From positions 56,709-120,708 of IMG/VR virus record IMGVR_UViG_3300042520_002054: a DNA stretch of 64,000 nt. One strand, written 5' to 3'. A model generated the notes under the pieces. It was not told the origin of the DNA. It made no database searches and saw only the letters and a list, made by a program, of their open reading frames with translations. The number at the start of each line of letters is the position of its first letter. The stretch's first letter is position 1. The DNA is from a virus. Below are positions 43,901-64,000 of the stretch, piece after piece. A program made the position numbers and the translations under genes.

Positions 43901-46900
43901 ATTGCTCTGCGCAAAGAAGCATAGAAACTATCATTTCCAGCTGTTCTAGAACTACTCAACAAGTCTAACTTCTGACCTTGAGTAGTATTAAATCTGACAC
44001 CTTTAGACATGTTTTTAGACATGTCACTAAGATTCTTAAAGAAGTTCTTAGACAGGTATTCGTCACCGTGAGCAAAACTTTCAAAAGCATAGTAATGTCT
44101 AAACACTGTTTCTTCAGTTCTTGGAAGAACTCCATTCTCTTTAACATCAATTGAAAGTAGTGAGAAACGTAATAGTGATTTAGGAATATTAATTCCTAAC
44201 ACCTGCATATTTTTATAAATAGAATTTACTAGCTGCTCTAGTTTTACTTCTTGATTACTCACAATAAGATCTGTGACACGTCCTGTGTTCTGATAAATAC
44301 TTAATGCAAGATTGGAAAGCGTTTCTGCAGCTTTCTTATACTCTTCGTCAGATGCCGACTTAGTATTTGTAGATTTAAGTTTTGCTTCAAGAGCATCCAT
44401 CTTAGACTGCACATCAGCTCTTGTTAACTTTTCAATCTGATTAGATGAAGTAGAAGAAGATATCAATTGATTCTGGTCATCTCTTTCTTCTTTTGTAATC
44501 AATCTGGTAAGTAATGAATCCATTTCAGCATTGTGAAAAGTATCAATTACCTGACTATACAAGAGCAAATCTCCACCAATAGGTTCAAAGTTTTCATTGA
44601 AACGAATATTCTTTTGTAAGACGTTAAACACAGCGTCTAAAGAACGAGCTTCGTCAATGTTTTCATCATATCTATACTGCTCTCCAGCAAGTGCTATTCT
44701 TGGAATAATTTCTTCAGGCATAGCATTAGCTGTAATCTTCATCAATAGATTAAAGATGTTTGATCCATCTACCATTCTAGAATACTTCACACCATTCTCA
44801 TCTTCAGTCTCATATTTAACTAAAGACAAGAATCTTCTCATTTCTCTAGGAAGACCTTCTAGTGGATTAATGTTAAAGAAAGATGCGTCAAGATCAGCAG
44901 ATGAACCAATTTCATCTTCTGTGATATCGAAATCATTTTCATTGAACTCTTCTTGAGTTGTTACATCCTCTTCTTCTCTATGTGCAGGAGTAGTACCATA
45001 GTTGATATGCTTAAGAATACCTTTTACTTGATTGAATAAAACATCAACAGCTTTATCATAAGTTTGAGCTACACCTGTATCATCAATATTATCATACGCC
45101 GGATTACCGGTCATGTTTTCAGCTTTAGCTTGAAAAGGTACTTGCTGACCATCAATGTTGAATTGTAAAACACCATGTGCTAAAACAGCACGCATATCAT
45201 CAAGTCTTGTTTTCCAGTTTGCTAAAATCTGCGAATCTTTTCCAGGATTGTTTACCATCCATGTATCAAGATTAAAGTCAGACATTGCTAAAAGCTTTCT
45301 CTGCAAATCAAACTTATCCTTGAGCGTAAGTTTTATCTCTGGATTAATTTCCGAAAACTCACGAGGATCAAAGTTCATTATTTCATATGCTATTCTATAA
45401 GCAAGCTGCTTTTGATCTTCTACTGGAAGAAAACTAGTTACACGTTTTACAGAACCATCTTCTTTCTGTACAATTCTATGACGAGTTGGTGCAAGTTCAA
45501 ATGCAACAGAACCTGTTTCATAATTACTAATTACGGCTGCATTCTTGTAATATCCTGTAGAAATTCTACCATAAACCTTGTCAATTGTATTAGCATTAGC
45601 TGTAAAGAACTTAATTAAGCCTTTCAACAAACTAAATAATTTAGCAAGGAGACCTACAGGTTTAGATGCTTTAGGTTTTGTCATATAAGATTTAAAACCT
45701 TCAGCTAAAATCTCTTCTGCAATTAAATTTTCTATACGCTCTTTGCTACCAACAACTTTACGACGTTCCGCAAATTTTTTTCTATATTCTTCGCTAAAGT
45801 ACTTTGAATTTTTAGGGTCAGCTTTAACCTGCTTTAAAAGTTTTGATCTTTCTTCAGATGTCATTAATCTTCTGAAGACATGGTGAAAAGCTTCGTGATA
45901 AATTGTACCACCTGATTTAATTGTCTTATTAAGATAGATTACACTATCCTTATACATACCCAAGATAGTACCGTTTGCTTCCACCATTTCAAGAAGTTCT
46001 TGAACTTCTTTTTCTTCTAGAGAAACAGACTTCAAGTTTTCTTGTAACCAAGCTTTTTCAGATTGAAGTCTTTCTTCACTGAAAGGTTCGGTATAGTTAT
46101 CTGAGAAATCTTCTTGTACAGAAAGGATGCTATCCTCAACAGGTATATCTAACCCATTGCTCTGTACCGAAGGAGTATTTGTAATGTTTTCTGATCCAGT
46201 GTTTGTGACTTCTTGAACCGGTGAAACAGAAGTCGTAGAATTCTGGTATGTCGCTTCAAATGCGACTCTACTTGGTTTAGGAGTAAGTACTTGATAGTAC
46301 TTTGTGTTGAATTTACCAATTTTAACATCATTGACACGTAAAGAGTAGTTGAGACCTTCTCCAGGTAAGCCTGGACTAGTTTGAGCAATAATTAGAAAAG
46401 GATTCTTTTTTAAACCGCTTTTCTCGTAAGTTGCTTTAAGTTCGTCACTTCCAGCATTGATTACACCCTCTAAAGTATTTACTAGCGAGTCTACAATGCT
46501 TTTGCTAATTCTTTGTACACTGCTAGAAACTCTTGAGTTATAATTTCTAAGATCAGAATCTTCAGGATGTCTTGCTTGCAGTTTAACTAAATCCGCATAA
46601 AAATCAATTATACCATCAGGAGTATTTACATCGTGAATACCTAGAGATGTATACTTGGATTTTAATTTTTCAGTGACACTATTAGATTTAAATCTATCTA
46701 AACTTTCTTTAATTGTATCAATAGGAAACTCAATGCTAATAGGTGCAATCAAATTACCATAGACTCTCTGCATTGGTTTTACACTGAATACTAATACAGG
46801 TTCATTTTCTTGATTTTTACGAACATTAATATTAATAGCAATACCACCACGAGGATCTATCTGAATACTTTTGGTATTGAACTCAAAGTTTAAATCATTA

Positions 46901-48858
46901 ATCTGTTCATCACTTAAACCCTCAGCAGTACTTAATGCTTGAGCAATACTATCAAAGTGCTCAGATATACGTGCATAAAAACCAATAAACTTGGCGTTAT
47001 TAAACATGGTAGAGGTAACAGAATTTGATGTTACCAATCCTGAAGAAGTCTTTGTTAATAGATATTTTTTGTTATAGGGTATTGATCTGGAATTCATTGA
47101 ATTAATCCAGCGACCCAAATTTGACTTACCAAAATAATCAATTGCAAATTCTGATACAGAGCTATATGAATTACCATTGAATTGAATTATTTCATTAGCG
47201 TTCAACTGAGATTCAAAAGACCAGTTAGTTGCATCAATATCAAATTCTTCAGGATTAACCTGTATACTAGAACGATTAGTATTTGTATAAAGAATCAAAG
47301 GAATTTGTGCAGTCCTTCTTTCTAATTCCAAACCAGTTCTTTCATCAAGTTTTACAACTTCAACAGTAGGGGTAGTATCAGGATTGTTTGCTATATAGTC
47401 TTCTAAAGATTGACTTGTTACAGCTGAACCTGAACTGTAAGAGAATAGATTGTAACTATTCTGGAAAATATTTGTTACATCAGTAACAGGTCCACCAGAC
47501 TCTACAACAGGTAAAACTTGAGCTTCAAACTGTTTGTACAGTTCATAAGCCTTAGCTAGTTCCTGAAGATCTGCTTGACTAAGCTTCGAATACTTACCAT
47601 TTCTGTTTACCACTGAAGTGTTTTGAACCCTTTTAAGATGTTCAGGATTACTAAAATCTACTATAGTAGTATTGTTATTATTATCTACAAAACTGTAGTT
47701 ATTGAGGGTAAATATTTCAAATGTTTCACCCGTACCTTCTACAACCCCAACTAAAATAAAACCTTGTTCTTGCTTAGGTCTTGCTACAGTTAATACTTCA
47801 CTAAATCCTACTGATCGTTCAAGCTTCTGAATTTGTGCTTCACTTTCAAATGTCTCATGTGTACGATTTGCAAGTCCTGCAATTGATGGATTAGATGATG
47901 CTTCAGAATACATTCTAGAAATACGATCATCTGCAATATTTCCAACCTTTACAGCAAATACTTTAAATGAAGAATTAATAGCTTCTTTAGATTTTGAAGC
48001 AAGAATTTCAGATGCCGGCTTTTGACCTTCTAGAATTACATCGCGCATTCTTAATCCTGAACGCATATTAACATCAAAGAAAATTGTTTCCCCGTTGTTA
48101 AATGACTCACTAGGAGCTGGGAGGGCAGGTCTTGCAAAAAGATAATCGGTTATTACAGTTCCGTCTAATGAAACATATTGATCACCTTCTTTGTAAGCTT
48201 CAACAACTACAAATCCTGGCAGACTTACTATATATGTTTGAAGATCTTCTGACAAGTTCTTCAATCTTACGTAAGGTGATTTACCAATTAATTTTTTACG
48301 AGCTGCTGATGTACGATTAAGTAAAAAGGTCTGGTTCTCAAGACTTAAATTCTTCAAAGTAGAATCTAAAAAATCCATGAACTTATTTATATCCTGAAGT
48401 TTTTCGTCTTGATTTTTATACGAAAAAGCTGATATATAAGCATTTACGTCTTTAAGAATTATGTCTAGTTGTACCTGAGTAATAGATTTTAATGACTCAA
48501 GGTTCTTAATGGAATCAAGAATACTTTCCGGTTTAATTGTAGATGTCTTAGACTTGACACCATACATTTCAGCAATCTTGTCTACAAATTGCTCAGGGTT
48601 TGATTCAATAAGATCTTTTAAACCAATAACACCAGATGCACTACCAAGCTCATAGAAAGACGAATCTAACCCATGCAGAGCTTGAAAAAGTTCTGCAAAA
48701 GAATAAATAGCGGTTGCTTTATTAAATGGGATTAGGGAACCGTTAGAGATTACTGCTTTTGCTACATTATCAAAGTTAGTATATCGCTGTGGGTCCGCCT
48801 GCACCAGCTTCTTTAAAATGGGAAGGAAGTCCGCAGGTGTTACCTTACAGTTTGTCAT
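37912..48858 (-). CDS. Virion-packaged RNA polymerase (crAss-like two-barrel vRNAP) with N-terminal zincin domain
   Basis: RIPTEDKRSM...AGSDLDID (DxDxD at 40885-40899), FDGQS, YHEAFH...EEILAE; 3648 aa; canonical position among three giant genes. Confidence 0.9.
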   Translation of the reverse strand: MTNCKVTPADFLPILKKLVQADPQRYTNFDNVAKAVISNGSLIPFNKATAIYSFAELFQALHGLDSSFYELGSASGVIGLKDLIESNPEQFVDKIAEMYGVKSKTSTIKPESILDSIKNLESLKSITQVQLDIILKDVNAYISAFSYKNQDEKLQDINKFMDFLDSTLKNLSLENQTFLLNRTSAARKKLIGKSPYVRLKNLSEDLQTYIVSLPGFVVVEAYKEGDQYVSLDGTVITDYLFARPALPAPSESFNNGETIFFDVNMRSGLRMRDVILEGQKPASEILASKSKEAINSSFKVFAVKVGNIADDRISRMYSEASSNPSIAGLANRTHETFESEAQIQKLERSVGFSEVLTVARPKQEQGFILVGVVEGTGETFEIFTLNNYSFVDNNNNTTIVDFSNPEHLKRVQNTSVVNRNGKYSKLSQADLQELAKAYELYKQFEAQVLPVVESGGPVTDVTNIFQNSYNLFSYSSGSAVTSQSLEDYIANNPDTTPTVEVVKLDERTGLELERRTAQIPLILYTNTNRSSIQVNPEEFDIDATNWSFESQLNANEIIQFNGNSYSSVSEFAIDYFGKSNLGRWINSMNSRSIPYNKKYLLTKTSSGLVTSNSVTSTMFNNAKFIGFYARISEHFDSIAQALSTAEGLSDEQINDLNFEFNTKSIQIDPRGGIAININVRKNQENEPVLVFSVKPMQRVYGNLIAPISIEFPIDTIKESLDRFKSNSVTEKLKSKYTSLGIHDVNTPDGIIDFYADLVKLQARHPEDSDLRNYNSRVSSSVQRISKSIVDSLVNTLEGVINAGSDELKATYEKSGLKKNPFLIIAQTSPGLPGEGLNYSLRVNDVKIGKFNTKYYQVLTPKPSRVAFEATYQNSTTSVSPVQEVTNTGSENITNTPSVQSNGLDIPVEDSILSVQEDFSDNYTEPFSEERLQSEKAWLQENLKSVSLEEKEVQELLEMVEANGTILGMYKDSVIYLNKTIKSGGTIYHEAFHHVFRRLMTSEERSKLLKQVKADPKNSKYFSEEYRKKFAERRKVVGSKERIENLIAEEILAEGFKSYMTKPKASKPVGLLAKLFSLLKGLIKFFTANANTIDKVYGRISTGYYKNAAVISNYETGSVAFELAPTRHRIVQKEDGSVKRVTSFLPVEDQKQLAYRIAYEIMNFDPREFSEINPEIKLTLKDKFDLQRKLLAMSDFNLDTWMVNNPGKDSQILANWKTRLDDMRAVLAHGVLQFNIDGQQVPFQAKAENMTGNPAYDNIDDTGVAQTYDKAVDVLFNQVKGILKHINYGTTPAHREEEDVTTQEEFNENDFDITEDEIGSSADLDASFFNINPLEGLPREMRRFLSLVKYETEDENGVKYSRMVDGSNIFNLLMKITANAMPEEIIPRIALAGEQYRYDENIDEARSLDAVFNVLQKNIRFNENFEPIGGDLLLYSQVIDTFHNAEMDSLLTRLITKEERDDQNQLISSSTSSNQIEKLTRADVQSKMDALEAKLKSTNTKSASDEEYKKAAETLSNLALSIYQNTGRVTDLIVSNQEVKLEQLVNSIYKNMQVLGINIPKSLLRFSLLSIDVKENGVLPRTEETVFRHYYAFESFAHGDEYLSKNFFKNLSDMSKNMSKGVRFNTTQGQKLDLLSSSRTAGNDSFYASLRRAMKYVLKMDPKELPSVVTNAEGKPVYRYVKYTPAVLLLQDIRNKGLEEALSTSIYYNDYLKPWFEDNFFIASALKNSAEGEKKTVERRLALKTFFENLSVSVNAGVEQIVNGQKVRSANYKGLNARSQYLQELMNFSQRTQLKSEHQMTTNNDERVSLTGEVTVFNRNLTQLEASQTNFLVSAMYINFAPKIVAGKVSYENTPVQYLRIAVQQEFNRIQREWSARSLRESLYEQGQNTYLNNFNAKKGQNGEIITNDTSLAEAKKLRAFQFNNLDDFFLTGQAITNFEEGSNEYERASLRNELIEIAKRQGEDKIDFKNLDAEVKSRLDKQLALYAEESFNKYLNNLLTNDIIKKDEKGSIVLKGGSRPREIKNGTINNSDVKQTKVSTRGAAFQSVYFTNKDLGINGDEQFLKDYYFNYLINSLFVNQLIDGDRAMGIKNTIDYFKRNKSLLAAGSTMKRGWYNVAHVDDITMLLDRNNILAGQYDSIDEIEDDSVRQLFENLTNEEGIIQEERGREKVFDGQSLTLLMHRIDFYQETGRLPEKARNLLIQANYRKLTPTEINYLEDNRIVLNSFKTVHAGRENYFKQSEHIINRTDVSVLNVTSEEERATLENAYRSIYDLRQRARMIEPGNTEYELIQNQIRELYNTIHGFWIPRPHRQKLHDLLNAMEYHQIDMLMDTTASKKVTSLPVSMEERNGNYISLNRSSYRVDARFKFNQVETSGISEDSKASVQAKILLPADIQHTIDRMLAESSVEDRERVTNETTQLAEILSKYNTTLARSTNSRLQFMLKALRDENGNINVGELVDTIREALVDQGADSNMLKFFETQDGKPKFNVNLPVIRKTFQYYFFSHYSNKVFDEKVKGGKYFHATSFGYKLLFDRETGRVIDSLEQDIAESNGQYMQYLDESRYGTRYPGITTEVDANGNTTYFVEVIVPMPEFKSFEEYNLFKEKMTKAFATRIPTEDKRSMIAFKIVDFIDASYKNTIIVPQLVHLLAGSDLDIDSLYAHGYASYNDATGKKHVYGDYTGYTEVNRTEAQFLELINSIGSNSVFRNEVSKAHRELMQETFEARKDNEVVYDEDTERVMELMGLPTMTDVAKVWEAENIQKQAFEEYLAVRTTNESNEEVADWKLQGELSSRLRQAKRQTELLESQFSDLDKKAFVKLYNYINAVQLVLAANGLPYTVDMFRENPQIPVETYQNQNLDAKLGIISNKIVFESLYSEERSDPSMFKNLAVNILGLSPETIAAKYNAFSIDGVINVNRLNAVNKDGIGITANFNKFLALVGANKLRLKSDERIWFLTDESGSSKFYDSFGGNESYRAIQLVGNALGMFADGAKDPIPALLQLNDVNLNVTLAMIGLGLPLEMAVFTNMLPEVINAVDSVKDSEINGTYTKMFYKEVNSEKRKLLTDQVVKDLTAAKILSANARNISFGNISIKYTTPESISSERLDAKLLTPAELGYSITTKSGEPLSLEAQKYILLDLYAKQAAQSFGIMDAGRIVNLFKRIKPSAAMVDRFSKSISRLKNNTGIFQNSSELFKGETVWNPLAQAVSDMNAQLSRIMLSRSNPLTSLRNLFGNIFQEQEEMADVIIGTLILDKMRVEAENPGATADEQFLKDTMKEMFRPEFWFGSVSDTSKFTTLEEDLEYLNDQYSTNPFVRTISIRSKEDAGTSRSYYILQMNTKAKLVPEIKEDIIDGYNALLKSVDPRARKIAVKLFFHEIIRNGMGRKASNFGQYINTDLYKNLNTYTEQLIESISSRAGFEKFFDGKRTVKDVMYQLYVKMIDAASVSKSTKIPALNALYIQDAVMAKKIFGVDNIRTNKKGFAFSDNIIKDLGEGKYVISLDMRSYEGENRNLMNAQVAPLGVRMEDYTSNRYEFPAMMRNNNGEIFVLTKLRTTDKSDITPISELLSQTIDTAGAVLGVQAEYQLYQPVSIDGMSLSGFTRQEINSFIGYAQGTKDLPASVTPEAKTPDIASKELTDKTNNGEIETKC

Positions 48859-55527: not shown

Positions 55528-58500
55528 TTATTCTTGCATACCGTTAAGTGCATTCCACAACATTTGCTGCTGATTCATACCTGGTGACATTACTGCACCA
55601 TTTGTACCGATACCAAGATTCTGATTATTTAAACGCATTTGTACAGCACGGGCTGCAGCTGCTCCTGCTTGTTTTGCAGCTTCTTCTCCTTTACTGATAT
55701 TAGCTCTATAACCTTCATCATAAGCAGTAGCAACAGATGAAGCTATTTGACTAGGATCGTATAAACCAGGATTAGTTCCGACAATGGCTCCTGTATACAT
55801 ATCGCGAGGATCATATCCTTGAGCAAAATTAATAGAACCATCAAGAGCATTTACTCTATAAGAAGGTGTAAGAAGTGGAAGCCATTCATTAGTCTTCTGA
55901 GCATTTGTAACACCTTCCATCCAGTTTGCTAAGTTACGATATTTAATTTGTCTTCTCTCATTCTCAGCAGCTTGACCTTTAATAGCAAGTGCATCATTGT
56001 AAGCTCCACGTAACTTAGTGTTCTCTAACATTCCTTGACGCAACGCTTGAGCATTTCTTGCATTTGTATTATTAACAATACCAACATTACCTTGCTCATA
56101 TTGTGAAATAACATTTGCAATATCTTCAGCAGATTGACCAGAGTATCCCATAACATTAGCACGTGCAACTTGACCATCGCTGGTGTTTTCTACTAAGTCT
56201 ACACCTTTGTTAAATTGTTCTTGTCTAGCAGCAATTTGCCTAGCAGGATCAAGTAATACATAGTCTTCTTCGACAATAGGTACTTGATAAAGTACAGGAT
56301 CAAATTCTGTAACTTTATCTGTAAGACCTACCGCAAATTTTCCAATATCTTGTAACCACCAGTTTTTAGGAACATCTTTTGGAATTTTACCTTTTGTTTT
56401 CGTTATTCCAGTACAGGCAGCATCTCTTTCTGCAACAGTATTGTAAAATACAGCACCCGCTGGAGCTTCTTCTTTTTTACCTTGACCCGATTGACCATTT
56501 TCTCCTTCTACAGAAGAAGGAACACACCAATACACTATTTCAGGAGTTGGTATTTTTCCCGGAGTACTAAAATCAGGAATAGCATCATAGTGTTCAAGAC
56601 CCCATTTAGTGTCATTTTTCATGACTTCTCTAAACTTGTCCGTAGGTAATACTTTTTGGAAAGCCGGGTAATAAGTTTTTTCCATAAACTCTTTATTGTT
56701 ATAAAGAGCTTTCGGATCTTTTAATTGATCATCAGTTACACCAGTAATACCAAGTAATTCAAAATATTTTTTACGAGTAGCAAGCTCATCTAATTTACCA
56801 GCTTCTTCAGCGCCAATAAACTTTCTTACAAACTTTGATTCAAAGTCTTGTGGTTTTAATCCTGCATAAAAGTAATTATAGTCTTTAGCAGAACCGCTTA
56901 CTCGAGCTGCACCACTTTGAACAACATCTTTAAAACCATAAGATGTAAGAACACTAGCAACTTGATCTCTTACTTCAGGTGTAGTACCATCAGGTAGTTG
57001 CACTCTCCACTGCTTTCTATTATTATCCCAAGTAACGTATTGTTTTACACTTTCTAATTCTTTTGGTAATCCTGGTTTAGTATTAGAATTGTTATTAGAA
57101 TCACTATTAGAGTTATTTGCTGGTGCAGAAGCATTTGTTCTTGCTGCTTTGGCTTCTTCTAATGTATTATAGTAAGTACCCTTATATTCATAAACTGTTT
57201 TACCAGCTGAATTTTTAGCTTCATATATTTTGTCATCTTCGCTACCACCAGCTTGAAATACAGGAATTAATCCACCTTTTTCAAATGTTCTACCAGTTCT
57301 AGTATACTGAGGTTGAGCATTCATATTACCTTCTAGACCACCTTGAACATTTGCTGAAGAACCAACAGCTCCAGAACCGACAAATACAGGTTTACCACCA
57401 ACATCTACAAATTTATTTCCTTTTCTGGCAGCTAGAATATCCTCATCAGTTAAATAAGTCAATGGTGCTTTATCATTTCTTTGATATACAACATTACCTT
57501 GTTGATCATATGTAATGTTTAAAGGTCTAACTACAACAGCGGGACCGGCTTTTTCATGTGTAACATTTACAGCAACACCTGGTGTACTACTACCTACTGA
57601 CTCACTCCAACCTTGAGTATATGCGAAAGGATCTACAATTTCATAATAACTTTTACCATCAAGAGAAAACTGTTGACCTTGTTCATATTCTCTTTTTTCT
57701 ACATTGCTCAGAATTCGTTTATTTCCCGGACCTACAGGTTGAGGAACCGCATCTTCAGGTCTGGTACCGTAATTCAAATATTCAACGCCTCTAATTCGAT
57801 TAGGTAAACCTTTACCATAAACATTATCATATGTAGGTAACCATTCTTTTTTAGATAAAGTTTCATATCTGTCTTTATCCATCTTAAGCTCTTTTCCGTT
57901 TTGAGGATTTACTAGAATTACAGTATCTCCAGTACCCCAACCCGGCTTATCTTCAGTAGCTTTCCAATAGTACTTTACACCATTGATATAAATAGGTGTT
58001 GTTTTATTGTAAATAGGATCACCAGCTGTTTCAAATTTTGTAAGACCACCATGCTTTGCTTGATTAAGCTCAGCACCCATAAGTGGAGCAGCAATAGAAG
58101 GAACACCATTAGGAAATCCTTTCATTGATTCTTGTACTAATGCAAGTTCAGCAAGTTTTTGTGAATTCTTTTTAACCATGTCACCTGCTGTTCTTTTTGT
58201 AATTGCGTCGGCGTCATCGCTCTTCATTAATTGCATGTACTTATTAATGTCATATTGCTTAGCAATTTCCGCAGGTGTGTAACCACCTTTCTTAAACGAT
58301 TTTCCAAATCTTGCTAAAACTTCTTCATCTTTAATTGCAAGTTTTCGAGTATCAGAAAATATAAAAGATCCACCCGGAACATTGAGAGGTACACCACCTT
58401 TAGAGTGACGTTTACCAGTAATTTTAAAATGCTCTAAGAACCCATCATTATTAAGATCTCCCACAATAGTTTCCCCACCTTCAGCTTCAATATTAGCTTC

Positions 58501-58641
58501 AGATCTAGGTACTGCACCCATTGTATCGGAAATAGGGGTGTTACCCTTATTCTCATAAGGATCAAACGCACTGCCTCTAACCAATCCGTAGTTTCGTTGG
58601 TCTCCTGTGCTTCCAGGTTTTTTAGTGATTCTTACTTTCAT
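55528..58641 (-). CDS. Virion structural/cargo protein with conserved EAEGGE...H..GG domain and variable inserts
   Basis: ANIEAEGGET...RHSKGGVP...FIFSD domain; internal xxGG motifs; Q/N/A-rich C-terminus. Confidence 0.65.
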   Translation of the reverse strand: MKVRITKKPGSTGDQRNYGLVRGSAFDPYENKGNTPISDTMGAVPRSEANIEAEGGETIVGDLNNDGFLEHFKITGKRHSKGGVPLNVPGGSFIFSDTRKLAIKDEEVLARFGKSFKKGGYTPAEIAKQYDINKYMQLMKSDDADAITKRTAGDMVKKNSQKLAELALVQESMKGFPNGVPSIAAPLMGAELNQAKHGGLTKFETAGDPIYNKTTPIYINGVKYYWKATEDKPGWGTGDTVILVNPQNGKELKMDKDRYETLSKKEWLPTYDNVYGKGLPNRIRGVEYLNYGTRPEDAVPQPVGPGNKRILSNVEKREYEQGQQFSLDGKSYYEIVDPFAYTQGWSESVGSSTPGVAVNVTHEKAGPAVVVRPLNITYDQQGNVVYQRNDKAPLTYLTDEDILAARKGNKFVDVGGKPVFVGSGAVGSSANVQGGLEGNMNAQPQYTRTGRTFEKGGLIPVFQAGGSEDDKIYEAKNSAGKTVYEYKGTYYNTLEEAKAARTNASAPANNSNSDSNNNSNTKPGLPKELESVKQYVTWDNNRKQWRVQLPDGTTPEVRDQVASVLTSYGFKDVVQSGAARVSGSAKDYNYFYAGLKPQDFESKFVRKFIGAEEAGKLDELATRKKYFELLGITGVTDDQLKDPKALYNNKEFMEKTYYPAFQKVLPTDKFREVMKNDTKWGLEHYDAIPDFSTPGKIPTPEIVYWCVPSSVEGENGQSGQGKKEEAPAGAVFYNTVAERDAACTGITKTKGKIPKDVPKNWWLQDIGKFAVGLTDKVTEFDPVLYQVPIVEEDYVLLDPARQIAARQEQFNKGVDLVENTSDGQVARANVMGYSGQSAEDIANVISQYEQGNVGIVNNTNARNAQALRQGMLENTKLRGAYNDALAIKGQAAENERRQIKYRNLANWMEGVTNAQKTNEWLPLLTPSYRVNALDGSINFAQGYDPRDMYTGAIVGTNPGLYDPSQIASSVATAYDEGYRANISKGEEAAKQAGAAAARAVQMRLNNQNLGIGTNGAVMSPGMNQQQMLWNALNGMQE

Positions 58642-58724: not shown

Positions 58725-61700
58725 TTAATCAAGAAACTCAATCTCTCCACCAGCTGCCATGATTGCAGCAATCTGCTGAGGTGTTAAATCATACTCACCA
58801 CCTTCTTCAAATCCAGGACCAAATCCATAATTAAATTGGTTTCCTTGATCTTGCGCATAAGTAGTTTTATTTGCAATAAAATTCTGTCCTTGTGCACGGT
58901 TTGTAGTATACTGACCAAACATGTCTCTATTCACGTAGTTGTTATCAAATCTAAAATCTGTGTTACCATATTTCTGAAGATTTGCTTCATATTCTTTTAG
59001 AGTATCTTTTCTATTCTTACGATTTGCAATTGTACTAATTGCTGAGATAGTTCCGTATGCTAGTGCTTGTCCTTCAGGATCAAGCTCCATAGATCGTGTT
59101 TTAACAGTAGGAGCAGCTGCAGTATTAGTCTGCCCTGTTGTACCTGTCTGTTGTTGTGCAGGAGCTGCTTGTTGTTGAGAGTTTGCAAGTTTCCATGATT
59201 CAACATATGCTTGATAGTCTTTTTCATCTTGAAGTTCTTGACCCATCAAACCTCTACCATTTTGCGCCATCCACTCATCTTTAGTAAGCATTGGTTCTCC
59301 ACCAACATCAAACTTCTGCATATAGTAACCACCGTATTTTGCCATGTTAGAAAAGTCTGTAGAACCTGCAGGAATATAGTCTACACCCATTGGGGGTACA
59401 CTAAGTTGCATTTGCTGCTTTCTACGCAGTTCCTCTTGAATAGGTTCTTGATACATACCTGGTTGTTTCCACTGATTCATTAATTCTTTCTGATCTTTTC
59501 TCTGCTGAACAACATCGGTAGTTCTGGTTTCACCAGTCTTGGTATTAGTTTCTGTAACATTTTTTGAAGCAGGACCAAACAATTTTCTGTACCCTAATGC
59601 AACGTTGTTAATTGCACCTGCACCTAACGCAATAGCTGCAAGATCACCAAAGAAACCTTTATCATCCATTCCTTCAATAGCATACAAAGAAGGGTTTAAT
59701 GTAGTGTTTGCACCAAAATTCACCATTGTTCTTGTAGGTTTATCTTGGTAAGCTGCAATATTCCTGTTTGTAACTGTTTTTGTTTTAGTCCAGTCACCTT
59801 CTTCACCACCACCAATCATTCTTTTCAAAATTTTATCTTGTACTTCTTCAGGAAGAGATTGGAATCCCTCATTCTGTGGTTCACCACCTTCTGCCCAAGT
59901 ACCAAAACGTTTGTGCCAGTACAGAGGTGAAAATGGATCTTTTGCTTTAGCAGAATCCTTACCACCCATACGGTCCCAAAAACGATCTCTACGTTTTTCT
60001 GATCCATGCTGTGTATAATCTTTCATACCATCATATCCACCATGAACTACTTTATAATCATCACCTTTCTTTGCAAGTACCATCCATTTTTTACCAGGAC
60101 GTGTGCTATTTTTTTTGACACCAACCTTTGAAAAACCCATGTTTTTGTAACGCTCCGGGATACCACCTTCTCTCATTTCTTCAGGCTCTTCTTGTTCTCC
60201 ATATTGCATGTAATCATTGATTGCAGTAGCAGAATGATTCATTACAGATATTTTATCACTAACCCATGGATCTAAATCCGATTCTGGAGTAATGAAATTC
60301 TTAAGATTATTTAATCTGTCAATCATAGCATTTACTTGTGTAAGCGCCATTCCTCCATCAGCTTCACCACCATCTTCAGCAAACATCATAGCTAATTTTG
60401 CTAACTGAAGTTTATCTTTCATATCCATATTTTGAATTTGCTTTAAAGGATTTGACATACCACCAAACTGATAAAAATTTGTTGGGACAAACACGGGTTG
60501 GTTTAACATGTCGTTATAATTTACACCACCCATTTCTTTTACATAGAATCCTCCTTCTGGTGCTGGTGCCCATGATTGACCACTAGCAATAAATTCCTGA
60601 TAGTTTTGTGGATTATCAGATGCTATTGGTTTTCTTACTTGTGCTGCAACTTCTTGTTTTTTTCTTGCTAACATTCCTTGATCAAATGCTTGTCTTTGCT
60701 CATTTGTTGCATCATTATAACTTACGTATTTTCTAAGATTTTCACGTGAAGCAAAGTTTTTATTTGCTGATGCAAAATCAGAACCATAATCAGTTCTTAC
60801 GCCATTAATATCAGTACTGACTTTAGGAACCATTTGATTAAGAGTCTTTAGTCCTATAAATCCATCTACTCTTGATATTCCGTTTTTAAAACTATTTGCT
60901 GTTCTTACACCTAATTGTCCTGAGTCTGTATTACCAGCAGCCATGTTTAAGAAATAAGATTGATAATCTTTAACTCTGTTTTTATCAATTGAAGAATTAG
61001 GATTTTCTTGGTTGTACTTCTTAATTAGTTCATATCCTAATTTTTTATCATGGTTATATCTTTCATCTGAAGCAGCACCAGATCTTTTTGCATACTTAAC
61101 AAACTCATTCCAATTGTTAAGATCTTGAGGTGATAGTGAATTTACTTCAGGTTGTCCACCGTCTTCCAATTGTCCTCCGCATTCAAAGCATCCACCTTCA
61201 GCAGCCTTTTTCCAGCTACCTCCGCGCTGTTTATACCATTTAGCAGCAAAACCATTTGCGTATGCAGAAGGATACACATCATATTTAGCTTTAGCAGCAG
61301 CTTTTGCTCTACTCCATAGTGAAGGATTTGTCGGTACATTACCACCTGATTTCATATCAGATAGTTCACCACCGTTCTCATATCCAAGCTTTTTCATATA
61401 TGCTTTTAATTTAGGGTCAGATTGTAATAATTTCATGTCTTGATTAACCATTGAAGAATAATTAGGATCTCCAGGGTTATAGTTCTGAATACCTTTTTTC
61501 TTAATTCTTTGTGCGGCAAGATGAAAGCTATCTAATGAACCAAGATCAGGTGTGGATTCTATTTTCTTATAATAATTAGCTATAAGTTGTGGATTCTTAT
61601 TTAAATAATTATCTATAGCTTTTACATCTACCACTTCATAGTTCCATCCATGATTATCTTTATGTACTTTAACACCTGGAACTTGTTTATCAGCTAAAAA

Positions 61701-62669
61701 TCTAGTAAAATCATAAGGCATATATTCTTCTGCTACATCCCATCCTGAAACTAAATTTTGTTTACTGCCAGATCTTAATTTATTTTGCCATGCACCAGAA
61801 CCAAAAGTAGATTCTCTACCCACAAGAGATAACATAACCCATGGGTCTACATTATTGTCCTTTGCAGCTTTCACAATATCATTTATCATTTCAGGATCAA
61901 CATTAGCTCCTGCAAAACGACCTGATGATAAACTTATTGATTCAGGACTATCATATTTTTTATGATCATTATCTTTTAACTTATCATAAACTTCTTGCGA
62001 TCTATCATAGTACTGTTGATAAGTATCTTTATATCCATAAGTACGTACTGGTGCAACTGGTACCTTAACTGGTGCAGAATTTGAAGTAGTTTTACTAGGT
62101 TCATCGCTAAACAAATAGTTATACAATTTTGATGCTCCGAGCATAAGATTAAATCCAGCGGGTGGTATCATATATCCATATTGAGCTAATTCAAGCTCAC
62201 CACCTTCTTCTTTCTTGTGGTTATATGAAATTCTTTTACTAGATGTTTTTTCTCTTTTAAATCTTGCTTTTTCAGCAGAAGATAATTCTGAAGCTGTTTT
62301 CGGAGTATCAGTAGATACTCTTTTAGAAGGACGACATGCAGGATAACCTTTACGTTTTTGACCTTCTTGTCTACCACATTCTTTACCTGTCTTAACATCT
62401 ACCCACTTTTCAGCAAACCATCTGTCGAGACCGCCATGCTGACCACCATTACCCATTACAGGTATTTCTAAAACACTACTACCCCCAAACTGATACTCTT
62501 CTCCGGGATACATTATTTGACTATTACCCATATTGTCTATTCCTAAAACAGGGAAATCAACATTCTTCATGGAAATTCTACCACTAGGAATAACATTGAA
62601 AGGTCTATTACGATCAACACTATTGCGTTCGTAACCGTACAAAGAAATATATTTATCTAAGTCTTTCAT
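58725..62669 (-). CDS. Mosaic virion protein (candidate polyprotein) including a lytic transglycosylase-like domain
   Basis: Unrelated small domains separated by recurring xxGG motifs; SLT-like AAKDNNVDPWVMLSLVGRESTFG...YN. Confidence 0.7.
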   Translation of the reverse strand: MKDLDKYISLYGYERNSVDRNRPFNVIPSGRISMKNVDFPVLGIDNMGNSQIMYPGEEYQFGGSSVLEIPVMGNGGQHGGLDRWFAEKWVDVKTGKECGRQEGQKRKGYPACRPSKRVSTDTPKTASELSSAEKARFKREKTSSKRISYNHKKEEGGELELAQYGYMIPPAGFNLMLGASKLYNYLFSDEPSKTTSNSAPVKVPVAPVRTYGYKDTYQQYYDRSQEVYDKLKDNDHKKYDSPESISLSSGRFAGANVDPEMINDIVKAAKDNNVDPWVMLSLVGRESTFGSGAWQNKLRSGSKQNLVSGWDVAEEYMPYDFTRFLADKQVPGVKVHKDNHGWNYEVVDVKAIDNYLNKNPQLIANYYKKIESTPDLGSLDSFHLAAQRIKKKGIQNYNPGDPNYSSMVNQDMKLLQSDPKLKAYMKKLGYENGGELSDMKSGGNVPTNPSLWSRAKAAAKAKYDVYPSAYANGFAAKWYKQRGGSWKKAAEGGCFECGGQLEDGGQPEVNSLSPQDLNNWNEFVKYAKRSGAASDERYNHDKKLGYELIKKYNQENPNSSIDKNRVKDYQSYFLNMAAGNTDSGQLGVRTANSFKNGISRVDGFIGLKTLNQMVPKVSTDINGVRTDYGSDFASANKNFASRENLRKYVSYNDATNEQRQAFDQGMLARKKQEVAAQVRKPIASDNPQNYQEFIASGQSWAPAPEGGFYVKEMGGVNYNDMLNQPVFVPTNFYQFGGMSNPLKQIQNMDMKDKLQLAKLAMMFAEDGGEADGGMALTQVNAMIDRLNNLKNFITPESDLDPWVSDKISVMNHSATAINDYMQYGEQEEPEEMREGGIPERYKNMGFSKVGVKKNSTRPGKKWMVLAKKGDDYKVVHGGYDGMKDYTQHGSEKRRDRFWDRMGGKDSAKAKDPFSPLYWHKRFGTWAEGGEPQNEGFQSLPEEVQDKILKRMIGGGEEGDWTKTKTVTNRNIAAYQDKPTRTMVNFGANTTLNPSLYAIEGMDDKGFFGDLAAIALGAGAINNVALGYRKLFGPASKNVTETNTKTGETRTTDVVQQRKDQKELMNQWKQPGMYQEPIQEELRRKQQMQLSVPPMGVDYIPAGSTDFSNMAKYGGYYMQKFDVGGEPMLTKDEWMAQNGRGLMGQELQDEKDYQAYVESWKLANSQQQAAPAQQQTGTTGQTNTAAAPTVKTRSMELDPEGQALAYGTISAISTIANRKNRKDTLKEYEANLQKYGNTDFRFDNNYVNRDMFGQYTTNRAQGQNFIANKTTYAQDQGNQFNYGFGPGFEEGGEYDLTPQQIAAIMAAGGEIEFLD

Positions 62670-64000
62670 TATCTAAAACTCAATAATTGTTTTGTCGTAA
62701 ATAATTTCAATAGCATTTTAATCTCACCGCTTACATTACGTCTCAGCAATAAACGATTACCATAATGACGGAATTTCTTACGCTCAAGAGGTGGTTTTGC
62801 ATAATCAACATAAGTGGGGTTAATCCTCTTCTTGTATCCATTTGCTTCAGTAATCCACATTGGTGTTGCACCTGCAGCAAACTCAAATCTATTTCTAGTT
62901 ACATCCCAGAATTGATTAAACCTATACTTATTTTCTTCTTTTGAAAAATGAATATCAATTGAGTTTGTACCGACAATCGGATATTGTAACAATGCAACAG
63001 GATTATTTTTGGGTTTTATTTGCATATTCAAATTACCAGAAATCTGTTCATTGTTAAATATTACAGCTCGATCAAAATTGTGATCTAGAGGAGAGAAGCT
63101 ATCTTGACAATCATTATAATACTTGTAGTTTTCAAGTAAGTACTCTACACTTCTAGTTGTAGTAACATTGTTTCCACTAGTAACTGGAAATTCAACTTCC
63201 CATGGATAATCTATACCATAGTAATTAGAGTATAAATCACATCTGTCGTTGTGCTTCCAAAACTCAGCACCCTTAATTGTTAAGAAATGCTCATATGCAG
63301 GTAATGTCAAACTAGGATGCCAATCGTGAAAACTAACCCATACTTTAGACTTAGGATCATAACTGATTGTCCAGCTGCAGTCTTCAAAATATTTAGGATT
63401 TGTAAGTTCAACATAGCATCTGCTACCAACCGGTGTTAAAGGTTGGTTTTCTATTAGATTGTAATTACAAGGAACATAAAACTTCTTAGCTTCTATGTCA
63501 TATTTAATTTCTGGTAGTAATGGTTTAAAATCTCTTTTTGTAAAATAGATCAAATCATACTGACCATCATATATTGTCTGGCAACCAATTCCTTCAACAG
63601 GATTATCATAGAGATCATAATCAGGAAATGCTTGCAATAACTTAGATGGTAAGTACTCAGCAAACCAGAGACGCATACCGTTACGAGATATTTCTTCTAA
63701 ACCTCCGCCACCATATTGAACCACTTTACCAATTTTCTGAGAAATGTAAAACAATCCATAAGGAGTATTAACAGCAGATCTATGACTTTGACAGCTTCCA
63801 TATTCAAGAATATCGTCAGCATTTACAAGTGACTGCATATTTTGTTGGAAAAGTCCACCATCACCAATAGTTATCTTAGTACCACCTTGAGTCTGTAGTG
63901 TATCTACACCAACAAATCTTGTAGGTTCAGAATCTTCATATAGAATAACAGCTCCGTTTTCATTAAGCGATTTGATGTTATTCACCTTACCGCCAAAATC
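62669..64000 (-). CDS. Tail stabilization/muzzle protein (crAss-like, P22 gp10-like), C-terminal part
   Basis: Frame is open to the window end (DFGGKVNNIKS...); beta-propeller-like YGSCQS...TPYGLFY, WTISYD...WVSFHDW.P and KKFRH motifs. Confidence 0.75.
   Translation of the reverse strand, partial: DFGGKVNNIKSLNENGAVILYEDSEPTRFVGVDTLQTQGGTKITIGDGGLFQQNMQSLVNADDILEYGSCQSHRSAVNTPYGLFYISQKIGKVVQYGGGGLEEISRNGMRLWFAEYLPSKLLQAFPDYDLYDNPVEGIGCQTIYDGQYDLIYFTKRDFKPLLPEIKYDIEAKKFYVPCNYNLIENQPLTPVGSRCYVELTNPKYFEDCSWTISYDPKSKVWVSFHDWHPSLTLPAYEHFLTIKGAEFWKHNDRCDLYSNYYGIDYPWEVEFPVTSGNNVTTTRSVEYLLENYKYYNDCQDSFSPLDHNFDRAVIFNNEQISGNLNMQIKPKNNPVALLQYPIVGTNSIDIHFSKEENKYRFNQFWDVTRNRFEFAAGATPMWITEANGYKKRINPTYVDYAKPPLERKKFRHYGNRLLLRRNVSGEIKMLLKLFTTKQLLSFR

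What the first reader, a model, noticed from the sequence alone, without database searches (positions are those of the whole stretch)
58725..62669. Candidate GG-delimited virion polyprotein carrying a cassette of small mobile domains
Seen: the 1314-aa ORF has more than 20 GG dipeptides. Most fit [M/F/Y/A/K]-x-x-GG (MGNGG, KEEGG, YENGG, MKSGG, AAEGG, LEDGG, KEMGG, YQFGG, AEDGG, MREGG, WAEGG, AKYGG, FDVGG, FEEGG) and fall at sharp compositional boundaries. Between them lie self-contained modules: a basic Cys/Trp module (GLDRWFAEKWVD..CGR..YPACRP, ~62435-62205), an SLT-like domain, a basic PTNPSLW..YPSAYAN..YK.RGG module (~61340-61200), a helical MALTQ..LDPWVSDKI..DYM module (~60350-60200) and a STRPGKKWMV..VH.G..DYTQH..R..F..R..SP.YW module (~60115-59895). 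From memory, several of these occur as standalone small proteins or in Glu-punctuated proteins of unrelated T4-like phages, and the T4 prohead protease cleaves after Glu. Inference: the GG motif is a protease-cleavage or capsid-loading tag that lets the phage collect, package and release many small effectors from one gene.
Basis: partly seen in the sequence, partly recalled or inferred. Interest (0 to 1): 0.85.

Follow-up and report, generated by a model that had tools for sequence, protein, structure and literature searches.

The report
Modular crassvirus cargo protein with Gly-Gly seams
This is the large virion cargo (ejection) protein encoded next to the tail "muzzle" gene of a crAss-like phage; it is a string of small swappable modules joined by a conserved Gly-Gly seam, and nothing yet shows that the seam is cut by a protease.

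Summary
The 1314-aa ORF (58725-62669, minus strand) has 25 GG dipeptides against 11.9 expected; 27 of 200,000 shuffles reach 25. Across relatives the motif is [M/Y/F]-x-x-G-G-[E/Q].

The GGs mark module borders:
- 7 of the 8 largest homology breakpoints lie within 4 residues of a GG.
- Orthologue insertions start and end exactly at GG.
- AlphaFold confidence collapses at the GG junctions of residues 1-700.
- A standalone 86-aa cyanophage ORF matches one GG-to-GG unit.

The genome is a 120.7-kb crassvirus. The ORF follows the muzzle gene, the position of the ΦcrAss001 cargo protein gp45. Modules include the two halves of DUF5872 (separated and in reversed order), DUF5754, a lysozyme-like domain and a possible peptidoglycan-binding domain. 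Orthologues swap in SET, YkuD, glucosaminidase and LysM.

Cleavage at GG is neither shown nor excluded, but several results weigh against it:
- No clan-CE or C39 protease or prohead protease was found.
- Seams are often tandem 6-9-residue GG units.
- The solved gp45 range spans three GGs, apparently uncut.
- The fused RNA-polymerase giant protein has no such motif.

Best reading: an uncut beads-on-a-string ejection protein. The cassette idea is supported; the protease-tag idea is open (about 0.2).

The parts
58725..62669 (-). 1314-aa ORF (P0001): modular cargo/ejection protein with 25 GG dipeptides
62454..62642 (-). N-terminal beta-rich domain, aa ~10-72. Shared with 86-95 of 119 homologues and with the MS-confirmed virion protein gp040 of Cellulophaga phage phi4:1 (37% identity over aa 8-76)
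62430..62453 (-). Seam 1 (aa 73-80; GG75, GG79). pLDDT below 50. Orthologue P0003 carries a 226-aa insertion exactly between two GGs here
62199..62429 (-). Basic module B, aa 81-157 (net charge +10 over aa 80-157). Matches DUF5872 profile positions 56-112. Equals the standalone 86-aa ORF of Prochlorococcus phage P-SCSP2 (53.5% identity). Ends at KKEEGG
62043..62198 (-). Low-confidence spacer, aa 158-209, with a short predicted helix at 175-187
61374..62042 (-). Confidently folded, mostly helical domain, aa 210-432 (pLDDT ~85-96). Probably lysozyme/lytic-transglycosylase-like. E286 (in the GRES motif) conserved in 90% or more of 38 aligned sequences. No Pfam hit
61341..61373 (-). Seam (aa 433-443; GG433, GG442). 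pLDDT below 50. Homologue coverage steps from 33 to 80
61200..61340 (-). Basic module A, aa 444-490 (net charge +7 over aa 443-493). Matches DUF5872 profile positions 1-39 and phrog_27331. Standalone 57-aa ORF in phage C72C1
61155..61199 (-). Seam with three GG units 6 aa apart, including a CxxC-GG unit (aa 491-505). pLDDT below 50
60555..61154 (-). Very highly conserved module, aa 506-705, present in 10 homologues. Possible peptidoglycan-binding domain (language-model lead only, score 0.79-0.81)
60354..60554 (-). Seam zone, aa 706-772 (GG706, 714, 736, 767, 772)
60168..60353 (-). Acidic helical module, aa 773-834 (net charge -8 over aa 773-836)
59883..60161 (-). Basic DUF5754 module, aa 837-929 (net +11). 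The most widely shared part (102 of 119 homologues). Bounded by MREGG and WAEGG
58728..59882 (-). C-terminal region, aa 930-1314. Low AlphaFold confidence. Gly/Ala-rich hydrophobic helix at aa ~1005-1027 (window 59589-59657; Kyte-Doolittle maximum 1.39). Conserved tail ending GGEIEFLD
62669..64000 (-). Upstream gene: C-terminal part of the crassvirus muzzle protein. The ORF runs off the record end
55528..58641 (-). Downstream 1037-aa ORF, probably a second cargo protein. GG not enriched (9 against 10.2 expected), with 3 [MYWF]xxGG sites
45883..45897 (-). HEAFH (HExxH) motif at aa 988 of the 3648-aa virion ORF (37912-48858). The only protease-like candidate found. The region is similar to ΦcrAss001 gp47 aa 2100-2293

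Best explanation
P0001 is the crassvirus tail/capsid cargo (ejection) protein encoded directly after the muzzle gene. That is the genomic position of ΦcrAss001 gp45 (cargo protein C1).

It is a beads-on-a-string chain made of:
- an N-terminal beta domain;
- three small basic modules (the two halves of DUF5872, and DUF5754);
- a lysozyme-like domain and a probable peptidoglycan-binding domain;
- an acidic helical module;
- a long, poorly ordered C-terminal part with a Gly/Ala-rich hydrophobic helix and a conserved C-terminal tail.

The modules are joined by short, acidic, Met/Tyr-rich low-complexity seams built from one to five units of the form [M/Y/F]-x-x-G-G-[E/Q].

Shown: the seams are conserved, they coincide with module borders, and they are the points at which modules are inserted, deleted and exchanged between phages.

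Inferred: the chain stays in one piece in the virion. The seams act as turn-forming, flexible and possibly mildly self-adhesive linkers. These would let small modules fold independently, be stored extended, thread through the portal and tail one after another, and refold in the host envelope. There the wall-active domains would open the peptidoglycan, the hydrophobic helix would enter the membrane, and the basic modules would accompany the DNA.
For: Position and virus type:
- Upstream ORF hits crAss_MUZ and phrog_37948.
- Crass_capsid, CrAss_Ring_1 and CrAss_Ring_2 occur in the same record.
- The gene order muzzle, then orthologue, then 1146-aa ORF recurs in an independent 123.7-kb viral contig.
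- In ΦcrAss001 the gene after the muzzle gene gp44 is cargo protein gp45.

gp45 shares the style: GG 21 against 13.3 expected. A[FY]GG or AEGG at residues 209, 263, 332, 427 and 562 flank its ordered segments 214-245 and 425-552. It has a Gly-rich predicted TM helix.

Seams equal module borders.

Seams are tandem low-complexity units: 25.1% of 3965 GG-to-GG gaps are 10 aa or less, against 7.9% in shuffles. Arrays of 3-5 units are common.

gp45 range 425-552, given in the paper as one ordered portal-bound domain, contains GG427, GG434 and GG447.

No maturation protease or GG-specific protease family was detected.

Podovirus ejection proteins are known to be mosaic, about 1300 aa long, to carry a peptidoglycan hydrolase and TM segments, and to be ejected partly unfolded (passages of PMC8954989).

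Orthologues place other wall-active domains in the chain (glucosaminidase, YkuD, LysM).
Against: - Both glycines of most seams are invariant across orthologues that share only 40-50% identity, while neighbouring residues vary. Such conservation goes beyond what a merely flexible linker needs and suggests recognition by a partner or enzyme.
- The standalone P-SCSP2 ORF coincides almost exactly with one GG-to-GG unit, as expected if free modules are the functional form.
- No significant sequence homology to gp45 was found. BLAST found nothing. hhalign gave only probability 9% (E=0.0036), and that was for a mini-module absent from P0001 itself.
- There are no proteomic data for this phage.
- The continuity of the gp45 model was taken from a residue range in the text, not from coordinates.
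- The lysozyme-like and peptidoglycan-binding assignments rest on weak leads.
Confidence: 0.5

Rival explanations
1. GG-delimited polyprotein. The [M/Y/F]xxGG seams are processing sites, cut inside the particle or after ejection by a phage protease (for example the HExxH domain of the 3648-aa virion protein) or by a host protease. Cutting would release small basic proteins, the wall hydrolase and a membrane-active C-terminal piece. This would parallel ASFV pp220/pp62 or the adenovirus core precursors.
For: - Strict conservation of both Gly residues with a hydrophobic residue upstream.
- Seams coincide with module borders and with the ends of a standalone homologue.
- Module position in the chain is free: the same module sits at three different positions in P0012, P0008 and P0013/P0014.
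- A virion-packaged zincin-like motif exists, and the literature already suspects cleavage of fused crass virion proteins (passage of bioRxiv 10.1101/2020.03.07.982082).
- Gly-Gly-X processing of virion polyproteins is established in ASFV (passage of PMC10308890).
- Cyanophage fusions of the same modules show a mild excess of [LIVM]xE, 21 against 12.6 expected. That is the T4 prohead-protease type of site (specificity recalled, not tested).
Against: - No clan-CE or C39 family and no prohead protease in a record rated 100% complete.
- The fused 3648-aa protein that would most need processing has 0 [MYWF]xxGG and no GG excess, 7 against 9.0 expected.
- Tandem arrays of 3-5 GG units 6-9 aa apart would yield many useless tiny peptides.
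- The last 'GG' of the conserved C-terminal tail is replaced by GA, GF or GY in distant family members.
- GGs in motif context lie inside folded modules (GG62 in a predicted beta-turn; gp45 I-N-E-G-G inside an ordered domain).
- ΦcrAss001 virion gels show bands at 85, 100, 150, 270 and >300 kDa, compatible with unprocessed large cargo proteins. The band assignments are in a figure I could not see.
Confidence: 0.22
2. Multivalent docking or loading motif. The repeated hydrophobic-x-x-GG units, and in some seams CxxC-GG units, are short linear motifs. They would bind a repeated site in the procapsid, portal wing or tail rings, or bind each other (sticker-and-spacer, possibly zinc-bridged). This would load and hold about a dozen extended chains in the cargo zones.
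For: - Motif conservation inside otherwise disordered seams.
- Tandem repetition that would give avidity.
- In gp45 the portal-bound ordered domain begins with A-F-G-G and contains two further GGs.
- The strongly conserved C-terminal tail.
- The modules' relatives sit in, or next to, portal genes in other phages: the CL131 portal fusion, and the gene after the portal gene in Vibrio phages qdvp001 and P018-4.
Against: - No partner was identified and no complex was modelled.
- The motif coincides with module borders rather than being spread along disordered regions.
- The long C-terminal disordered part has few GGs.
Confidence: 0.18
3. Chance or compositional artefact: the GG excess simply reflects a Gly-rich, low-complexity protein.
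For: - Gly is 9.5% of residues.
- Some other ORFs of the genome also show GG excess without the motif, for example 9 against 3.5 and 8 against 3.3.
Against: - 27 of 200,000 composition-preserving shuffles reach the observed count.
- There is a specific sequence context.
- The motif is conserved across more than 100 homologues.
- It coincides with independent markers of module borders.
Confidence: 0.02

Closest known systems
ΦcrAss001 gp45, cargo protein C1 (Bayfield et al. 2023, PMC10172136; passages read)
   Same: - Encoded right after the muzzle gene.
- Large and mostly poorly ordered.
- GG-enriched, with hydrophobic-GG units flanking its ordered segments.
- Gly-rich hydrophobic helix.
- Orthologues of P0001 carry a mini-module resembling gp45 aa 370-421.
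   Different: - No significant overall sequence similarity.
- P0001 is 1314 aa against 842 aa.
- P0001 carries DUF5872 halves, DUF5754 and a lysozyme-like domain that gp45 lacks.
- Portal or tail binding has not been tested for P0001.
T7 gp16-type podovirus ejection proteins (review PMC8954989; passages read)
   Same: About 1300 aa, with a peptidoglycan-hydrolase domain towards the N-terminus, hydrophobic segments, mosaic domain swapping between phages, and ejection in a partly unfolded state.
   Different: No homology test was made. A conserved GG seam motif and strings of 40-90-aa mobile mini-modules are not mentioned in the passages I read ('glycine' occurs 0 times in that paper).
ASFV polyproteins pp220/pp62, cut at Gly-Gly-X by pS273R, and the adenovirus precursors cut by adenain (PMC10308890 passages read; adenain consensus recalled)
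   Same: A virion-internal multi-product protein with GG at the product borders. Some products are small and basic.
   Different: - No SUMO-protease-like (clan CE) enzyme in this genome.
- The hydrophobic residue is at -3 from the first Gly, not at the adenain P4 position.
- Seams are tandem arrays.
- Cleavage has not been shown.
Cellulophaga phage phi4:1 gp040 (KC821632), a virion structural protein annotated from MS/MS
   Same: Shares the N-terminal domain (37% identity, E=1.2e-8). GG 14 against 7.1 expected, with F-Q-x-G-G and Y-Q-N-G-G type seams. It lies in a block of large structural genes.
   Different: It belongs to a non-crass 146-kb phage, is 895 aa long, and carries different internal modules.
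Multi-module small-domain proteins of T4-like cyanophages (for example S-BM3 SBM3_00185, gene cluster T4-GC 119) and the tiny standalone ORFs of P-SCSP2 and C72C1
   Same: They carry the same mini-modules (DUF5872 halves and others) and are encoded in head-morphogenesis neighbourhoods.
   Different: The modules are joined by acidic, Glu-containing linkers or encoded as separate genes. There are no GG seams: GG 4 against 3.9, 1 against 1.1 and 3 against 3.1 in three of four proteins.

Membership tests
Crassvirus cargo protein C1 (ΦcrAss001 gp45-like) | Gene immediately downstream of the muzzle gene in the virion block | tested here: met
Crassvirus cargo protein C1 (ΦcrAss001 gp45-like) | Detectable sequence homology to gp45 | tested here: not met
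   No BLASTP hit at E<=0.01. hhalign of A2 gave E=0.43. hhalign of A3 gave E=0.0036, probability 9%, for a module that P0001 itself lacks.
Crassvirus cargo protein C1 (ΦcrAss001 gp45-like) | Present in virions, with parts bound to the tail barrel and the portal wing | not testable with these tools
   No virion data exist for this metagenomic phage. The relative phi4:1 gp040 is annotated as MS/MS-confirmed.
Crassvirus cargo protein C1 (ΦcrAss001 gp45-like) | Predicted membrane helix | tested here: inconclusive
   The best 19-residue Kyte-Doolittle window scores 1.39, at aa 1007-1025 (Gly/Ala-rich). No TM predictor was available.
Gly-Gly-X processed virion polyproteins (ASFV pp220/pp62; adenovirus precursors) | Conserved GG at product or module borders | tested here: met
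Gly-Gly-X processed virion polyproteins (ASFV pp220/pp62; adenovirus precursors) | Cognate clan-CE cysteine protease encoded by the virus | tested here: not met
   PF02902 and PF00770 gave no match at E<=1 in the complete record. No protease was found among the Pfam or PHROG hits of the virion ORFs.
Gly-Gly-X processed virion polyproteins (ASFV pp220/pp62; adenovirus precursors) | Mature products with termini at GG | not testable with these tools
   Needs virion N-terminomics.
Double-glycine leader / C39 peptidase systems | C39 peptidase domain present | tested here: not met
   PF03412 gave no match at E<=1.
DUF5872 (PF19197) | Score above the Pfam gathering cut-off (27.5 bits) | tested here: met
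   71.5 bits for the whole protein. The C-half alone scores 56.3 bits. The N-half alone scores 24.7 bits, below the cut-off. The two halves are about 300 aa apart and in reversed order.
DUF5754 (PF19058) | Score above the Pfam gathering cut-off (27.4 bits) | tested here: met
   34.7 bits and 40.1 bits for the isolated piece.
Family-1 lytic transglycosylase (SLT, PF01464) | Match to the SLT profile | tested here: not met
   No Pfam hit for aa 158-434 at E<=5. No PDB sequence or profile hit.
Family-1 lytic transglycosylase (SLT, PF01464) | Lysozyme-like fold with a catalytic Glu-Ser | tested here: inconclusive
   aa 210-432 fold with pLDDT ~85-96. E286 is conserved in 90% or more of 38 sequences. 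Foldseek gives only MltF at E=1.1 and PRD1 transglycosylase at E=0.17. The Atlas lead 'Lysozyme g / SLT 26%' scores 0.88. The SLT motif pattern is recalled, not tested.

The most novel reading that the evidence does not exclude
Crass-like and other Flavobacteria-type phages may have a so far unrecognised Gly-Gly-directed maturation system. In this reading the cargo gene is a true polyprotein, and its [M/Y/F]xxGG seams are cut inside the particle or on ejection by a non-clan-CE enzyme, perhaps the conserved virion HExxH domain. One gene would then deliver a changeable set of free small effectors: DNA-binding mini-proteins, wall enzymes, even a SET methyltransferase. It would be a phage counterpart of ASFV and adenovirus GG processing. 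The same mini-modules in T4-like cyanophages would be released at Glu sites by the prohead protease.
Probability: 0.2. Interest if true: 0.8.

Novelty: new variant of a known kind. Interest (0 to 1): 0.55.

Why it matters
Crassviruses are among the most abundant phages known, and their cargo (ejection) proteins are the least understood part of the virion. The 2026 N4 paper says their structures still need resolving.

This finding gives those proteins a simple grammar. They are small autonomous modules, shared with cyanophages and other phages (and, per the paper titles listed, giant and polinton-like viruses), stitched together by one conserved Gly-Gly seam at which evolution swaps cassettes.

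That grammar has three practical uses:
- It allows automatic parsing of hundreds of otherwise unannotatable giant ORFs.
- It identifies DUF5872 as two independent mini-domains.
- It links DUF5872 and DUF5754 to capsid-internal or portal-adjacent roles.

It also poses a sharp, cheap experiment: are the seams cut? If they are, it would reveal a new phage maturation protease specificity and a one-gene delivery system for many effectors.

Tried and rejected
- Shine-Dalgarno or internal-start idea. GG seams are encoded mostly as GGT-GGT. GGAGG occurs only 4 times in the CDS. Rejected.
- Clan-CE, adenain and C39 proteases in the genome: no hits.
- Prohead protease. PHROGs on 20 morphogenesis ORFs and Pfam on 33 virion-module ORFs (13 families, all shown) found none. 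In the Pfam run on 99 ORFs, only 25 of 52 matched families were displayed, so 27 families were not seen.
- Pfam on the three largest neighbouring ORFs found only a PD-(D/E)XK nuclease domain in the 2232-aa ORF.
- PDB sequence and profile searches with P0001 and A2: no match. The 1037-aa neighbour gave only chance-level SlyD hits.
- Foldseek against PDB with the 700-residue multi-domain model: nothing at E<=0.001. The model could not be cut into domains.
- AlphaFold of aa 690-1314: mean pLDDT 38.7, uninformative.
- hhalign to gp45: no convincing homology.
- My by-eye impression that the P0001 N-terminal domain and the 1037-aa N-terminus resemble the portal-bound part of gp45 got no statistical support. 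I do not claim it.
- Pairwise indel analysis on alignment A1 is noisy, because MAFFT forces unrelated modules together. 44 of 218 boundaries lie within 3 aa of a GG (null mean 26.3, maximum 46 in 2000). 69 of 218 lie within 6 aa (null mean 44.9, maximum 63). The clean cases were read.
- The search for related loci returned only 1 locus.
- P0153 and P0192 look like a natural split of the gene into two ORFs.
- Literature searches for a described GG-delimited phage cargo protein or for the DUFs found none in the held library. Subscription papers are not covered. The supplements and figures of PMC10172136 and PMC6235969 (gp45 peptide map, gel band assignments) could not be seen and may bear on cleavage.

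Full report
**What is there.** The window is the right-hand 64 kb of a 120,708-bp viral record rated 100% complete. Its 127-bp exact end repeat looks like an assembly overlap. The record is a crassvirus. Pfam finds Crass_capsid, CrAss_Ring_1, CrAss_Ring_2 and crAss_MUZ among 33 virion-module ORFs. PHROGs find crass-type portal, terminase and major head protein.

The finding's ORF (58725-62669, minus strand, 1314 aa) starts where the muzzle ORF ends. It is followed by ORFs of 1037, 872, 1334, 3648 and 2232 aa. An independent 123.7-kb viral contig has the same order: muzzle (1559 aa), a 47%-identical orthologue (1510 aa), then a 1146-aa ORF. In ΦcrAss001 the gene after the muzzle gene gp44 is gp45, cargo protein C1. 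[quoted passage not shown]

**The GG observation.** There are 25 GG dipeptides against 11.9 expected, and 27 of 200,000 shuffles reach 25. Among the 121 ORFs I called in the genome, this one has by far the most [MYWF]xxGG sites: 12, against 6 and 5 in the 1720- and 1825-aa ORFs, whose GG counts are as expected. Three smaller Gly-rich ORFs also have a GG excess, but with at most one such site each.

A search of the 5.8-billion-protein collection gave 413 relatives of 722-2300 aa (120 listed) and 313 shorter ones (120 listed). Over 121 sequences GG totals 2655 against 1331 expected. After collapsing 1302 distinct 12-residue contexts to 542 dissimilar ones, the motif is clear:
- Position -3 is M 22%, Y 20% or F 10% (hydrophobic 61% against 28% background).
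- Position -2 is polar (Q, K, A, E).
- Position -1 is often acidic or Y.
- Position +1 is E 20% or Q 11%.
- Position +2 is hydrophobic in 45%.

**GG seams are module borders.** Four independent lines agree.
1. BLASTP of P0001 against 119 homologues gives step-like coverage. The eight largest clusters of internal HSP ends are at aa 27, 76, 158, 431, 508, 763, 831 and 930, and seven of these lie within 4 residues of a GG. Over the 20 clusters with n>=3 the median distance is 8 against a null of 27.9, P=0.005.
2. In an alignment of ten co-linear orthologues, insertions and swaps start and end at GG.
   - P0003 has a 226-aa insertion lying exactly between ...YGG and ...SGG.
   - P0012 has a 59-aa module lying exactly between two GGs.
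   - P0008 replaces the DUF5872 N-half module by two other modules, each closed by GG.
   - A roughly 60-aa module bounded by KYGG and ELGG is present in eight orthologues and absent from P0001 and P0003.
   - P0013 and P0014 have an extra module after WAEGG.
   - P0014 begins with a SET domain closed by KTGG.
   - A crude automatic count on the same alignment is noisier but agrees: 69 of 218 boundaries lie within 6 aa of a GG, against a null mean of 44.9 and a maximum of 63 in 2000 trials.
3. AlphaFold2 on aa 1-700 (38-sequence alignment, mean pLDDT 63.9) folds aa ~10-72, 210-432 (pLDDT ~85-96) and 444-489. Confidence drops below 50 at aa 73-89, 433-443 and 490-511, which are the seams.
4. 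Pfam on the GG-cut pieces maps DUF5872 profile positions 56-112 to aa 81-144 and positions 1-39 to aa 446-485. DUF5872 is therefore really two mini-modules, here 300 residues apart and in reversed order. DUF5754 maps to aa 854-901.

Not all GGs are seams. GG62 sits in a predicted beta-turn of the N-terminal domain. GG483, GG877 and GG902 lie inside modules.

**The modules are mobile and capsid-associated.** The basic Cys/Trp module (aa 80-176) is 53.5% identical to a region of Prochlorococcus podophage P-SCSP2. There it is an 86-aa ORF that starts at the residue equivalent to the one after GG79 and ends about ten residues past the equivalent of GG156. It sits among other tiny ORFs between the scaffold and capsid genes, and a 56-aa neighbour is the other DUF5872 half. 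Phage C72C1 encodes the two halves as adjacent 57- and 77-aa ORFs close to its portal gene.

A 337-aa protein of the T4-like cyanophage S-BM3 strings several such modules together next to the small terminase gene. Relatives of it occur in 497 phage records, mostly cyanomyoviruses. Their linkers are acidic, with a modest excess of [LIVM]xE: 21 against 12.6 expected in four proteins. That this resembles the T4 prohead-protease site is recalled knowledge, not tested here.

DUF5754 lies inside the 1393-aa portal fusion protein of Aphanizomenon phage CL131. It also lies in the gene just after the portal gene of Vibrio phages qdvp001 and P018-4.

The N-terminal domain of P0001 is shared (37% identity, E=1.2e-8) with gp040 of Cellulophaga phage phi4:1. 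That protein is annotated as a virion protein from MS/MS, and it also has GG 14 against 7.1 expected with similar seams.

**What the parts probably do.**
- Residues 210-432 form a confident, mostly helical domain with a conserved Glu-Ser (E286 conserved in 90% or more of 38 sequences).
- It has no Pfam or PDB sequence match. The only fold or feature leads are weak ones to lysozyme-like enzymes: MltF at E=1.1, PRD1 transglycosylase at E=0.17, and 'Lysozyme g' at 0.88.
- Orthologues carry glucosaminidase, YkuD or LysM domains elsewhere in the chain, which fits a wall-active role.
- Residues 506-705 are almost invariant among orthologues. They have only a low-score lead to peptidoglycan-binding domains.
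- The three small modules are strongly basic, with net charges of +10, +7 and +11.
- The C-terminal 385 residues are predicted poorly. They contain a Gly/Ala-rich hydrophobic stretch, reminiscent of the Gly-rich predicted TM helix of gp45, and a conserved tail.

Together this is the profile of a podovirus ejection protein of the T7 gp16 kind. Such proteins are known to be mosaic (passages of PMC8954989).

**Is the seam a cleavage site?**

Points in favour:
- Both glycines are invariant at most seams across 40-50%-identical orthologues.
- The context is specific.
- Standalone homologues match GG-to-GG units.
- Module order is free.
- GG-X processing of virion polyproteins is established in ASFV (passage of PMC10308890).
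- A virion zincin-like motif exists: HEAFH at aa 988 of the 3648-aa ORF. That region is 31% identical to ΦcrAss001 gp47 aa 2100-2293. The literature has suggested this motif may process fused crass virion proteins (passage).

Points against:
- No clan-CE or C39 peptidase and no prohead protease was found.
- The 3648-aa fusion protein lacks the motif entirely.
- Seams are frequently tandem arrays of three to five 6-9-residue GG units, often including a CxxC-GG unit. 25.1% of 3965 GG-GG gaps are 10 aa or less, against 7.9% in shuffles.
- The last GG of the C-terminal tail is replaced by GA, GF or GY in distant members.
- ΦcrAss001 gp45 shows the same style, with GG 21 against 13.3 expected and hydrophobic-GG units flanking its ordered pieces. 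Its ordered range 425-552, as stated in the paper, runs through three GGs, one in an I-N-E-G-G context.
- The words 'cleav' and 'proteoly' do not occur in that paper.
- ΦcrAss001 virion gels show bands up to more than 300 kDa. The figure with band assignments and the supplements were not visible to me.

**Verdict.** The 'cassette of small mobile domains in a virion protein' reading is supported. The 'GG is a protease or loading tag' reading is untested and, on balance, less likely than an uncut chain with conserved linker units. My estimates are:
- 0.5 for the uncut modular ejection protein;
- 0.22 for GG-site processing;
- 0.18 for a docking or self-association motif;
- 0.02 for chance;
- the remainder for something else.

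I found no description of this seam grammar in the held literature.

Noticed in passing
window 62669-64000 and genome ends (G000:C1:1-127 and 120582-120708): The record's 'direct terminal repeat' is an exact 127-bp overlap, which looks like assembler circularisation (my recollection of common k-mer sizes). The muzzle ORF runs off the record end, so it presumably continues across the junction. Only its last 438 aa are in the window, whereas the orthologous contig L015 has a 1559-aa muzzle.
   Followed up: partly
window 37912-48858 (-): The 3648-aa ORF looks like a fusion of parts that are separate in ΦcrAss001. Its aa 932-1107 (with HEAFH at 988) match the gp47 C-terminus. Its aa 2482-2661 and 2927-3423 match the RNA polymerase gp50. 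It has no Pfam hit.
   Followed up: partly
window 31204-37902 (-): The 2232-aa virion-block ORF carries a PD-(D/E)XK nuclease domain at aa 444-567 (E=1.3e-7). It also has weak similarity to ΦcrAss001 gp49.
   Followed up: no
P0001 aa 494-499 (window ~61173-61190) and seams of many homologues: A recurrent C-x-x-C-G-G unit sits in the seams. P0001 has only four Cys in all: this pair plus two in the DUF5872 C-half module. This suggests a zinc site formed between distant segments or between chains. The zinc-hook analogy is recalled and untested.
   Followed up: no
homologues P0014, P0045 (SET, PF00856); P0061, P0065, P0066 (YkuD); P0066, P0075, P0085, P0113 (glucosaminidase); P0192 (HEFSH motif): Orthologous cargo proteins carry enzyme passengers, including a SET methyltransferase domain at the N-terminus and, in P0192, an HExxH-containing module.
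   Followed up: partly
homologues P0153 (593 aa) and P0192 (533 aa): Together these look like a natural split of the cargo gene into an N-part and a C-part. Both are listed with a longest contig of 98,909 bp. The C-part starts with a ~40-aa module closed by MKQGG, which also heads P0224. Adjacency was not verified.
   Followed up: partly
window 55528-58641 (-): [quoted passage not shown] Neither BLAST nor a PDB search supports this.
   Followed up: partly
whole record G000 (one of the 99 ORFs scanned; position not determined): There are a Phage_integrase hit (E=2.6e-16) and a Phage_int_SAM_5 hit, which is unusual for a crass-like genome. The record also has spore photoproduct lyase, PhoH, ribonucleotide reductase, ThyX, and TSP1/spondin and fn3 domains. 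Peptidase_S74 chaperone domains occur in two members.
   Followed up: no
genome 7717-12296 (-), outside the window: Three ORFs (168, 560 and 594 aa) have a GG excess with at most one [MYWF]xxGG site each: 9 against 4.0, 9 against 3.5 and 8 against 3.3. None has a PHROG hit. They are Gly-rich proteins of unknown role.
   Followed up: no
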